DNA from: Eledone cirrhosa
Taxonomy: Eukaryota
NCBI GenBank assembly: GCA_964016885.1
Contig: OZ024740.1
Location: 345,030,001-345,094,000, forward strand
Direction: 5' to 3'
Length of the DNA stretch: 64,000 nt
The notes under the pieces are model-generated. The model had not been told where the DNA came from. It saw only the letters and a program-made list of their open reading frames with translations, and made no database searches. Every line of letters begins with the position of its first letter. The stretch's first letter is position 1. This document shows positions 18,091 through 59,185 of the stretch, one piece after another. The translations under genes were made by a program, and so were the position numbers.

Positions 18091-18275
18091 GTTTTAATAT
18101 AGATGAGATTCTACAGGACTAGAACTGTTTCATTCTTTAGAAATCATCAGATGATTTCTAAAGAATGAAACAGTTCTAGTCCTGTAGAATCTCATCTATA
18201 TTAAAACTTTTATACTCTGCTATGTATTGAGTACCTTACTTACTGTGGTTACCTCCGATTCAACCCGGAATAACG
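18091..18275. mobile_element. Family C pLTR palindrome (18091-18207, axis 18149) with hammerhead on the minus arm
   Basis: Perfect 58-bp arms; minus strand CTGATGA-TTTC-taaa-GAAT-GAAA-CAG..CTG-TA-GAATCT. Confidence 0.8.
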
Positions 18276-42429: not shown

Positions 42430-42529
42430 CATCTATATTAAAACTTTTATACTCTGCTATGTATTTTTACCTTACTTACTGTGGTTACCTCCGATTCAAC
42501 CCGGAATATCTTGCCTATATATATATATA

Positions 42530-43525
42530 ATTATATATAGTAATAATAATAAAATTGAAGACTAAAATCCAAAGAGTGCTCGATAAGGATAAATATATAT
42601 CAAATATATAAGAACCATAGAGCAAATATTTATTAAATAACAGATTAAAGTTTAAGCAAATAATCGCTGCTTTCACCCTTAACAGGATCTTCTGAAACTA
42701 ACAAAGTCAATCTGTAAACGCAGAACTGGATATTTCAAAAACGTTGCAACCGGAGGAAGACGGGAAGACGATACTTTGAAACGTTAGCAATGCTGGGTTC
42801 CACGGGGGGTTATTATAGGTTTTAAATCCAAATTTATCCTGTTTGTTGTCTGTTTTTCGCGGATTATCGAAATAAAAGGCACGCCAACGCAACCTTTTAA
42901 TGAACGCGTCTGTTTTCTGTATCAGGAGTTTTAGGTATGTTTTCCTGCTTGGTACGGGTATGTTCTTTGTAGAAATATTCAGATATTGTTTCTGCATGAT
43001 GAATATAAGTCAGTAGAGTGCTCAACCGAGGGAGCCAAATAGTAATAAAAATAAAATTGAAGACTAAAATCCAAAGAGGGCTCGATAAGGATAAATATAT
43101 ATCAAATATATAAGAACCGTAGAGCAAATATTTATTAATTAACAGATTAAAGTTTAAGCAAAGAATTGATGCTTTCACCCTTAACGGGATCTTCTGAAAC
43201 TAACAAAGTCAATCTGTAAACGCAGAACTGGATATTTCAAAAAACGTTGCACCCGGAGGAAGACAGGAAGACGATACTTTGGTTCGTGGAAACGTTAGCA
43301 ATGCTGGGTTCCACGGGGGGTTATTATAGGTTTTAAATCCAAATTTATCCTGTTTATTGTCTGCTTTTCGCGGATTATCGAAATAAAAGGCACGCCAACG
43401 CAACCTTTTAATGAACGCGTCTTTTTCTGTATCAGGAGTTTTAGGTATGTTTTCCTGCTTGGTACGGGTATGTTCTTTGTAGAAATATTCAGATATTGTT
43501 TCTGCATGATGAATATAAGTCAAAT
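42530..43525 (-). mobile_element. Tandem dimer of an internally deleted PLE (502-bp unit)
   Basis: Each unit has the PLE ORF N-terminus MQKQYLNISTKNIPVPSRKTYLKLLIQKTDAFIKRLRWRAF..FGFKTYNNPP fused to pLTR with a hammerhead-like motif (42649-42699, 43151-43201). Confidence 0.8.
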
Positions 43526-43536
43526 AAATATATAAT

Positions 43537-43557
<21 letters not shown>

Positions 43558-43569
<12 letters not shown>

Positions 43570-43812
43570 TTAGCTTTCACCGTATTTTTGACTAAAGGAA
43601 TTTTAGCCTGATAATGGGGTTTAGAACCCTCAGATAAATGGAAAAAGATGAGTATTGACGTACAGAACCCTCAGATAAATGGAAAAAGATGAGTATTGAC
43701 GTACATGTACGTCAATACTCATCTTTTTCCATTTATCTGAGGGTTCTAAACCCCATTATCAGGCTAACATTCCTTTAGTCAAAAATACGGTGAAAGCTAT
43801 ATATTTTCTAAT
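43558..43812. repeat. Palindrome (axis ~43705) with a 41-bp direct duplication in the left arm
   Basis: Centre GACGTACATGTACGTC; AGAACCCTCAGATAAATGGAAAAAGATGAGTATTGACGTAC duplicated. Confidence 0.85.
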
Positions 43813-43849
43813 TTCAAACCTGCTCACTGTTTCAAAACATACTTACTTA

Positions 43850-43904
<55 letters not shown>

Positions 43905-57094: not shown

Positions 57095-59185
57095 ATAATA
57101 ATAATAATGTCCGTTTACAATTGTTTCGGTTCTCCATATAATATTTCTGGATCAAATGATTATATATCATTATTGATCTGGCTCAGTTGAAAATAATTAA
57201 CATAGGTATAAATAGAGCAGCTCATCGAAACTTCAAAAGGAATATAAATTAAAATAAGGATAGAATGTTACATAAATGTAATGTTCCATATGTTGGTATT
57301 TCACTATGGTGTCCTGGGTATATCAATTGTCTGCCATAGTATAGCAGTATTCTTCTGTCGAGGCTGCATTGTGTGAGATCTGCCTATGGGTAACAAGATG
57401 GCCGCCAATGGACATATTTACCTTACTAATTAGAGGGTGGTTTCAGGGGAAGTAACTCCTCGAGAGATTAGAAATTGTGTGTAGTTTATAGTTAAGTGCT
57501 AATTTTTTAATTTTTTAATTGAGCGACAATTATAATTATTTGCTACATGTAAAAATGGGGCTAGATGACTATGCTGGGTCAAATATTCTGTTGGCGAAGG
57601 AATTAGCCCTTTAATGTTGACAGCTAATAGTTACCTCCGTTCTATCGTTAATCGGTAGAGGTCGTGATAGAGTCATGTAATATTCTTCGGTAAGACAGAG
57701 TTCACAAGATTTTCTTCGTCCATTGAACGGTTGGGCCCTAGCCAAGATATCCCATGTTAGTGAGTGTTCAATGTTGGTTAATTTAAGGTTTTTATTGAGC
57801 CTAGCTAGAGATGTCGAATATCTGTTGTTAGAGTCTCGGAAGGAAAAAGAGTGGTGCGCGTTATAGCGTACCTTAAAAGGGTTAGAGGTAGACCCGATAT
57901 ATGAGCTGGTCTGCCAAGCAGTTTTAACCGTGCACCTATAGACTATGTTGGGTGTCAGGCAATGTCCATTTAGTGGGCATGCATTAGGGTAACGGCAGTT
58001 GCAGTTACTCCTGCGGTTAGTGAGAGTAGGGTTGTTTAACCTAAGCGGTTGGTCAGTGCTAGAAGGATTAGATGGGGGAGGTGTGCTACTAGAGTAAGTA
58101 TTGGTGTAGTGGCGTGGTGTATTTGATGGGGGTGGTGTTACCGCGGTGTGGGAGTTATACTGTCTTAGTTTATGATGGTTACTGAATGCGATGTGGCTAG
58201 CTAGGTTAGGTGTTGTGGAGAATGAGATTTTAATGTTATTTGTATTAAAGAGTTTGTAATATCTATGGTTGGGGGGTGGATGTTTAGATAGGATAGAGAA
58301 GAAGCGTTTATGGATATTAGTGGCTAGATTAGATTAGAATGGAGGGTTAAGCCAGGTGATATTTCTAGGCCTATTCCTTTTAGGGGTTCTAGTGGAGTTG
58401 GTAGGGGCCTTCATAGGGCTATTATTACCTGGGCATTTGTTATTTGTCATCCCATTGCTCATTCCTATTCTAGGGTTGATTTTTAATTTGCTACTTGGAA
58501 GCAGGCCACTGCCACTATTATGGTTCCCTGTATAAGTGCTGTTATTGCTAAAATTCCGGCGAATCTGACTATATGCTAAGGTATTTCTAGTTCTAGTGTT
58601 AAGTTTATTATGGTTGCGGTGAATTGCTGTGTTATGGTATTTAGGTATGTAGTAAATGGACTGTTCATAACCAGATTCAGAAAGAGCCTTATTATAATAT
58701 GCTGCATGGTTTATAAATATCTCCTCATTTGCTGATAGCATGGAGATCCTATATGAGATACATTTGATTACTGCTCTGATGACTGCCGGTGGGTGGTTAG
58801 AGAGTGGGCTAATATATGTAAGATTTCACCTGATTTATGGTAAGGGTAATATAGGTTTTATTGTTAAGATCCAGGGTAACGTCTAGGAAGTTTACTACTT
58901 TATGGTTCGGCTCGATGGTGATAGAGAGACCGTTATTTATAAAGAATCTGTGTAATTGATATTTGAGCAAGTCAATGCCTCTATTAGAGCAATTGTGGAC
59001 TGTAAATAGGGCGTCGTCCCTATATATTCCGCTTTGCAAGGGCTGGATTTCGGGTCTGATGTTATGTAATAGGTAAATTCCAACTAAATGGGTGATTTGC
59101 GCAGATCAATAATGATATATAATCATTTGATCCAGAAATATTATATGGAGTAGCGAAACAATTGTAAACGTACATTATTATTATT
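57095..59185 (-). mobile_element. 5'-truncated PLE (YRDD-type RT + C-terminal GIY-YIG, tentatively Hydra clade) with inverted pLTR piece 59062-59185
   Basis: GIYRDDA, VNFLDVTLDL, SNHPP, RNITWLNPPF, CNCRYPNACPLNGHCLTPNIVY..YIGST..FKVRY, CELCLTE; inserted in (TAA)n. Confidence 0.9.
57113..57233 (-). ncRNA. Degenerate hammerhead with ~95-nt stem II domain
   Basis: GTT-tcGATGA-GCTGCTCTAT...ATGGAG(TAGC in the 59150 copy)-GAAA-CAATTG-TA-AAC. Confidence 0.65.

What the first reader, a model, noticed from the sequence alone, without database searches (positions are those of the whole stretch)
42530..43525. 502-bp ribozyme-delimited mini-Penelope in tandem (retrozyme-like)
Seen: two head-to-tail units on the minus strand, each with the first ~73 codons of a PLE ORF fused directly to the pLTR and hammerhead-like motif. 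Both have the fusion at the same ORF position (AAACGTT). The undeleted pLTR at 44465-44905 continues differently from that same AAACGTT, which defines a microhomology deletion. The motifs are 502 bp apart and the units differ by substitutions and small indels. Established: metazoan non-LTR retrozymes are short tandem hammerhead repeats that yield circular RNAs and are thought to use PLE machinery. Inference: a snapshot of a retrozyme-like parasite arising directly from a PLE, predicting a ~500-nt linear or circular RNA.
Basis: partly seen in the sequence, partly recalled or inferred. Interest (0 to 1): 0.72.

Follow-up and report, generated by a model that had tools for sequence, protein, structure and literature searches.

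The report
Penelope retroelement's one-off mini-repeat byproducts
This double repeat is found at only one place in the genome and was likely made when a Penelope-type jumping gene copied a short piece of its own RNA almost twice over; the same family has left dozens of similar mini-units, mostly with different joints, which would show how small ribozyme-bearing parasites (retrozymes) can be born, although this one has not spread and its ribozyme is predicted to be weak or dead.

Summary
The tandem is real: two ~510-nt units, 95.5% alike, each joining the first 71 codons of a Hydra-type Penelope-like element (PLE) to its hammerhead-bearing 3' end. Two details fail: the overlap at the joint is 1 nt, not 7, and the hammerhead core has A at U4, as does the whole family (21,838 exact motif matches). 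The joint occurs only here, so this is no retrozyme family. Yet it is not a local duplication either: it spans 1.95 periods, ends at the family's fixed start site and is flanked by a 17-nt direct repeat. Such joints are routine: 18 of 92 ORF-start-bearing copies carry one; 54 loci show 39 different joints, but a locus with several joints repeats the same one (8 of 8 within 1 nt; 23 of 1431 pairs between loci). Best reading: the PLE enzyme copies one short RNA past its own end, by end-to-end jumping or round a circle. The joints are not at the ribozyme cut site. PLE origin of retrozymes is already proposed in print; earlier scan notes report fixed ends and single-template copying on other DNA of this genome; none of those shown reports these joints. 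No RNA data.

The parts
43528..43544 (-). left copy of a 17-nt interrupted (TA)n direct repeat, likely target-site duplication
   Evidence: its 16-nt core occurs only at the two flanks in the window
43013..43522 (-). unit 1 (510 nt): end of 5' UTR, ORF start, joint, pLTR with hammerhead-like motif, full tail
43296..43507 (-). first 71 codons of the Hydra-type PLE ORF in unit 1, frameshifted by a 1-nt loss
43295..43296 (-). ORF/pLTR joint in unit 1 (1-nt overlap), 3 nt past the 3' splice site of the parent's 3' UTR intron
43151..43201 (-). type I hammerhead-like motif, core CAGAAGA (U4A); predicted cut after 43156
   Evidence: layout as Hydra-1_aJap in Craig 2021 File S2
43013..43038 (-). native 26-nt stretch between the family's second fixed end and the next unit; present once, so not derivable from a monomer insertion
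42537..43012 (-). unit 2 (476 nt), ending at the family's second fixed 3' end
42785..42997 (-). first 71 codons of the ORF in unit 2, in frame
42784..42785 (-). same ORF/pLTR joint in unit 2
42649..42699 (-). second hammerhead-like motif (U4A); predicted cut after 42654
42523..42539 (-). right copy of the 17-nt direct repeat (overlaps the unit's last 3 nt)
44457..45298 (-). separate 5'-truncated copy of the same family (3' UTR with intron part, motif, first fixed end); not part of the dimer

Best explanation
The dimer is a single-locus, decaying insertion that was likely made in one event, when the reverse transcriptase of its high-copy Hydra-type PLE copied a short (~510 nt) RNA spanning the pLTR-to-ORF boundary almost twice, either by jumping from the RNA's 5' end to its 3' end or by running round a circle. 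Shown: parent family, unique joint, 1.95 periods, fixed 3' end, flanking repeat, equal private decay of both units, and a large class of similar mini-units whose joints differ between loci but repeat within a locus. Inferred: short transcripts that begin about 50-300 nt upstream of the family's first fixed end and stop 45-230 nt into the ORF carry both internal start sites; the enzyme starts at one of them, reaches the 5' end, continues on the 3' end of the same molecule and can go round again. The joint is not made at the hammerhead cut site. I put end-to-end jumping slightly ahead of a covalent circle (about 55:45).
For: Joint only here: 2 of 2 exact matches, 2 spanning hits of 40 scored. 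Unit 2 ends at a fixed family end (31 of 72 alignment ends at unit position 484-486, 30 of 72 at 394-395). 17-nt flank repeat; background 4 in 464 TA tracts. Removing one period leaves a monomer without the native 26-nt spacer, so unequal crossover cannot build it; the same holds for L288 and L291. Each unit has 6 private substitutions; only 2 substitutions are shared, one of them common in the family. Census: 18 of 92 ORF-start loci have a short joint, 16 distinct, none joining to the middle of the element. 54 non-passenger loci: 39 distinct joints; 8 loci with 2-4 joints repeat the same one (7 exactly, 1 within 1 nt), 7 of them also on the opposite arm; between loci 23 of 1431 pairs. Loci sharing a joint share a rare variant in 1 of 10 groups. 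Overlap of 1+ nt in 43 of 54 (49% expected), 2+ nt in 26 of 54 (19% expected), which fits a polymerase jump. In vitro, another PLE starts internally at two sites, extends both strands, accepts short templates and does not need hammerhead cleavage (PMC11167929).
Against: No RNA was seen; the template is inferred from DNA alone. Local expansion does occur in such units: 6 of 28 passenger loci gained a period, so expansion followed by a 5' deletion cannot be excluded here. Flank repeats were not evident in the other short-joint loci I read by eye, and 5 unassigned bases lie between the left repeat and unit 1. Some joints recur at 2-5 loci (3 loci), which could mean small donor-derived families. 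Pattern searches need exact anchors and miss diverged copies; the assembly may lack a donor. A second identical jump onto an RNA end already paired with cDNA is harder than rolling round a circle, while only 2 of about 19 opposite arms stop at the joint's 5' side (read by eye), so jump versus circle is unresolved. Overlap counts used one reference copy and tolerate mismatches.
Confidence: 0.68

Rival explanations
1. One reading: an established retrozyme-like parasite, cut by its two hammerheads to a ~502-nt RNA, circularised and spread by the PLE; donor lost or unassembled.
For: Two same-strand motifs 502 nt apart with intact stems; insertion hallmarks; fits the preprint's working definition of tandem units each with a hammerhead if the motif is accepted.
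Against: Joint unique; U4A core; hammerhead fold 2-7.5 kcal above the best fold and stem I pairing probability 0.18 or less; folding z -0.7 to -0.8; units have decayed independently; 8 of 9 predicted Xenopus dimers did not cleave in vitro.
Confidence: 0.1
2. Pure DNA history: an ordinary partial-tandem PLE lost 2.75 kb by deletion, gained a period by unequal crossover between its two pLTRs, then lost its upstream pLTR.
For: Internal deletions exist (3 of 92; L013, L016); period gain seen in 6 of 28 passenger loci; microhomology deletions of Penelope copies are described (PMC3846280 passages).
Against: Needs three events; the left flank repeat sits 5 nt from unit 1; random deletion does not explain 16 distinct joints that all land in the last ~420 nt with none in the middle, nor identical joints on opposite arms at 7 loci.
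Confidence: 0.13
3. A small DNA circle excised from a native tandem copy by short-overlap end joining was transcribed or copied in rolling fashion and then inserted by the PLE.
For: Explains 1-2 nt overlap enrichment together with exact repetition of the joint within a locus.
Against: No direct evidence; does not by itself explain why the ORF side clusters (8 of 16 distinct census joints at 82-97).
Confidence: 0.09

Closest known systems
Hydra clade of EN+ Penelope-like elements (Craig et al. 2021, PMC8557442; section 11, passages, File S1/S2 parts read)
   Same: Parent ORF (709 aa in L056) has RWR, DKT, CxCX5C, CxxC, CxH and a YIG motif; (TA)n targets; hammerhead layout like Hydra-1_aJap with U at the cut site; partial tandems and inverted arms.
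   Different: 3.26 kb between motifs, with a 750-nt 3' UTR intron; U4A core and 9-nt loop III; the window holds only an ORF-less derivative; four peptide/DNA probes of this family found nothing in the paper's supplement.
Metazoan non-LTR retrozymes (Cervera and de la Pena 2020, PMC7229834, part 2 of 6 and passages; Li, Clavereau, Pollet 2026, bioRxiv 10.64898/2026.07.22.740005, parts 1-3 of 5)
   Same: Short head-to-tail units with a type I hammerhead motif, low GC, long target duplication, PLE pLTR ancestry.
   Different: One locus only; non-canonical core; keeps 71 codons of the parent ORF; no RNA shown. The preprint argues PLE origin from phylogeny and suggests local amplification; here the units appear to arise during insertion.
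Internal initiation by Poseidon_Ac (Frangieh et al. 2024, PMC11167929, parts 1-2 of 4)
   Same: Two internal start sites, both strands extended, short pLTR-ORF RNA is enough, hammerhead mutants still insert.
   Different: The parts read report no copying past the template's 5' end; other clade; start sites there lie in the ORF, here in the pLTR tail.
Non-autonomous PLE derivatives such as MRC1 of Chlamydomonas (PMC8557442, passage)
   Same: ORF-less, head-to-tail, share the parent's 3' end.
   Different: MRC1 is an amplified active family; this unit has not spread.

Membership tests
non-LTR retrozyme | short tandem units, each with a hammerhead motif | tested here: met
   two units, motifs 502 nt apart
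non-LTR retrozyme | canonical type I core (C3 U4 G5 A6 N7 G8 A9 ... G12 A13 A14) | tested here: not met
   U4A in both units; 63 of 66 sampled family motifs CAGAAGA, none CTGA; consensus from PMC3088659 passages; no Rfam hit
non-LTR retrozyme | dispersed multi-copy family | tested here: not met
   joint only at this locus
non-LTR retrozyme | self-cleavage; linear and circular monomer RNA | not testable with these tools
   no RNA holder listed
non-LTR retrozyme | non-coding, no LTR/PBS/PPT, long TSD when present | tested here: met
   only a 71-codon remnant; 17-nt flank repeat; PBS/PPT not searched
Hydra-clade PLE (parent) | RWK-like motif, DKT, CxCX5C linker, CxxC and CxH, C-terminal GIY-YIG-like motif | tested here: met
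   motif scan of the L056 ORF against Craig section 11; RWR for RWK; Pfam gave no RT or GIY-YIG hit on two parent ORFs
Hydra-clade PLE (parent) | (TA)n insertion | tested here: met
   3' flanks
Hydra-clade PLE (parent) | canonical hammerhead in the 3' end | tested here: not met
   layout matches, core U4A; all 26 Hydra rows of File S2 have ctga, but they were found with a canonical descriptor
Hydra-clade PLE (parent) | placement in the RT phylogeny; absence of the CCHH motif | not tested
   no tree built, CCHH not scored

The most novel reading that the evidence does not exclude
A Hydra PLE routinely circularises, or jumps end to end on, its own short promoter-proximal transcripts, so that about one in six ORF-start-bearing insertions is a newly minted 170-550-nt mini-element, some already multimeric. 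This would be the birth route of animal retrozymes, independent of ribozyme cleavage, and it operates in a 20,000-copy family whose hammerhead carries a fixed core change.
Probability: 0.45. Interest if true: 0.72.

Novelty: new variant of a known kind. Interest (0 to 1): 0.52.

Why it matters
How retrozymes arise from PLEs, and how PLEs make their more-than-unit tandems, are open questions: the PLE link rests on co-occurrence and trees. A marked joint that is unique to each insertion but repeated on both arms and in successive rounds is a natural barcode showing that one RNA molecule templates a whole insertion and can be copied past its end. It gives exact RNA ends to look for and a simple in vitro test. 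The locus itself is a dead copy and matters only as one of three clear direct multi-round examples found.

Tried and rejected
Rfam: no hammerhead in the region nor among the 150 of 243 rows listed for the window. Folding gave no excess stability. Splicing as the cause of the joint: rejected, the joint is 3 nt past a real acceptor and the ORF side has no GT. The 95-match 367-nt joint first looked like a spreading mini-family; 29 of 30 loci share the 5' flank and over 1 kb beyond it, so it rides in a larger repeat. The 699 canonical-core matches are not an intact subfamily as far as seen: 6 of 6 examined are fold-back joints. 57095-59060 as parent: rejected. Sequencing runs: no RNA holder listed, no evidence either way; no bridging piece among the 24 of 841 listed, no evidence either way. 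A genome-wide count of close motif pairs could not be run, so short tandems outside the sampled joint ranges are uncounted. Lunse et al. 2017 (core variants in PLE hammerheads) was not available and is unread; it may report U4 variants. Searches found nothing on U4A. The preprint's supplements are closed; Craig's supplement was seen only in part.

Full report
Observation. The minus strand holds two head-to-tail units, 43522-43013 and 43012-42537, 95.5% identical. Each has the end of a 5' UTR, 71 codons of an ORF, a joint, and a 3' end with a hammerhead-like motif; the cores lie at 43196 and 42694. The period is about 510 nt; 502 results from small indels, chiefly 8 nt lost in unit 2. Unit 1 is frameshifted. 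A separate truncated copy of the same family lies at 45298-44457.

Parent. The genome (G000, 3.0 Gb) holds 21,838 exact matches to the 28-nt motif and 784 to the ORF start. Twenty 9-kb stretches showed full units of about 3.26 kb and ORFs up to 709 aa with RWR, DKT, CxCX5C, CxxC, CxH and YIG motifs, the marks of the Hydra clade in Craig et al.. Pfam did not recognise these ORFs and I built no tree. The PLE at 57095-59060 is another family (37-42% protein identity).

The joint. Intact copies continue GCTA|CCCTTC on the ORF side and read GCGA|ACGTTT on the pLTR side; reads show both continuations at 43296. The overlap is one base, so the proposed 7-nt microhomology does not exist. The joint lies 3 nt past the acceptor of a 750-nt GT-AG intron in the parent's 3' UTR, whose spliced form is also inserted (3 of 62 distinct contexts), but the ORF side has no donor. 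The joint is unique: 2 exact matches, both here; a gapped pattern adds one other, different joint; 2 spanning hits among 40 scored of 586 candidates.

The motif. Stems I-III pair in both units, in the layout of Hydra-1_aJap in Craig's File S2, with a predicted cut after CUU. The core has A at U4. This is family-wide: 63 of 66 sampled motifs, none canonical; 6 of 6 examined of the 699 canonical-looking matches are fold-back joints centred on that base. U4 is part of the consensus core, though a U4C variant with much reduced activity still supports a viroid (PMC3088659 passages). The fold is not favoured and Rfam misses it. Activity is untested; I expect it to be weak or absent. The predicted cut lies about 140 nt from the joint, so the ribozyme did not make the joint.

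One insertion, not a local duplication. In 40 loci sampled from the start of contig 1, alignment ends fall at unit position 394-395 (30 of 72) or 484-486 (31 of 72); unit 2 ends at 484. A 17-nt interrupted-TA repeat flanks both sides and is rare elsewhere (4 in 464 TA tracts). The insert spans 1.95 periods; take one period away and the native 26-nt spacer (43038-43013) is missing, so no unequal crossover from a monomer can build it. Each unit has 6 private substitutions (about 1.25%; family median 2.1% over 65 alignments) and they share two, so the copies parted at about the time they left the family stock.

A class, not an accident. Of the first 92 ORF-start matches on contig 1, 70 run on for 1 kb or to the end of the stretch, 3 have internal deletions, 1 just ends and 18 join the ORF start to the last ~420 nt of the element; 16 joints are distinct, periods 169-549 and one of 1101. 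Three of the 18 share a joint that has 95 genome matches, but these ride in a larger repeat (29 of 30 share flanks). A narrow gapped pattern gave 92 matches genome-wide. I examined the loci of the first 30 rows and all later rows not of the passenger type, 62 loci after removing three duplicates; 8 were passengers and 54 were scored (one of these likely a passenger too, two poorly resolved). They show 39 distinct joints. Eight loci hold 2-4 joints: identical in 7, within 1 nt in L288; 7 of the 8 have it on both arms of an inverted insertion, and L288 and L291 in direct repeats that, like the window, cannot be reduced to a monomer. Between loci only 23 of 1431 pairs agree, and loci that agree share a rare variant in 1 of 10 groups. 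Overlaps of 1-2 nt are enriched (43 of 54 against 49%; 26 of 54 against 19%).

Mechanism. The joint behaves as a property of each insertion event, hence of one template molecule. Most likely short transcripts run from just upstream of the motif through the tail into the ORF start; they contain both start sites; the enzyme starts internally, reaches the 5' end and continues on the 3' end. Internal starts at two sites, extension of both strands, sufficiency of short templates and dispensability of hammerhead cleavage are shown in vitro for another PLE (PMC11167929). Overlap enrichment, a 1-nt variation among L288's joints and 2 of about 19 opposite arms that stop at the joint's 5' side favour end-to-end jumping; exact repetition in direct multimers favours a circle. 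End-to-end jumping by other retroelement enzymes is recalled, from no call. All steps at the RNA level are inferred.

Against. No RNA data. Period gain after insertion is real (6 of 28 passenger loci). Flank repeats were not evident at other short-joint loci. Some joints recur. Exact-anchor patterns undercount, and the census covers part of one contig.

What is known. Circular templates for PLE tandems were proposed in 2014 (PMC4209133, part 1 and passages), PLEs as retrozyme carriers in 2020, and pLTR origin of retrozymes in a 2026 preprint. Ten searches of the held library (listings and abstracts' starts only, apart from the papers named) showed no description of per-insertion ORF-start joints; subscription papers, Lunse 2017 and closed supplements were not seen. 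Earlier scan notes (16 shown of about 1500; one search found no look-alike) describe two fixed ends and single-template copying in other families of this genome; they are unchecked leads, not support.

Verdict. A dead, single-copy product that fails retrozyme membership on core and spread but works like a first step towards one. New variant of a known kind; interest 0.52, carried by the class rather than the locus.

Noticed in passing
parent family, e.g. L049 (intron at element positions ~2226-2975); spliced in L017/L060, L062, L080: A 750-nt GT-AG intron in the 3' UTR with a second donor 32 nt downstream; both spliced forms have been inserted into the genome (3 of 62 distinct contexts).
   Followed up: partly
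genome-wide; window 8895-9179; L033-L038: Inverted insertions turn at the TTC(A/T)GAA palindrome at the start of the hammerhead core; 699 exact matches have the fold-back signature and 6 of 6 examined are fold-backs. The U4A change creates this palindrome centre on one arm.
   Followed up: partly
genome-wide: A family of more than 20,000 copies with a fixed U4A hammerhead core: either a tolerated variant or a sign that cleavage is dispensable.
   Followed up: partly
L202-L231 (95 matches): A 367-nt mini-unit with the same pLTR-side breakpoint as the window's joint is carried as a passenger in a larger, unidentified repeat, and has gained a period in 6 of 28 loci.
   Followed up: partly
L288 (G000:C8:36315000-36319000), L291 (G000:C10:15351900-15354800): Younger multimers of 353- and 356-nt units (about 99% alike within the locus); better candidates than the window for RNA tests.
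   Followed up: partly
window 43560-43850: A 290-nt fold-back insertion with an internal 41-nt duplication, between TA tracts; no other copy in the window.
   Followed up: no
window 57095-59105, 7854-8507, 54111-55903: Other retroelement remains: a decayed PLE of another family; a GIY-YIG frame; an RT frame followed by a C2H2 zinc-finger frame.
   Followed up: no
window, e.g. 1942, 7406, 14376, 18148-18150, 38705, 39425, 42385: Several further CTGANGA...GAAA motifs of other repeat families, some in inverted pairs.
   Followed up: no
parent 3' UTR, window 44618-44891: An old internal duplication of about 135 nt (75% alike) upstream of the motif, present across the family.
   Followed up: no
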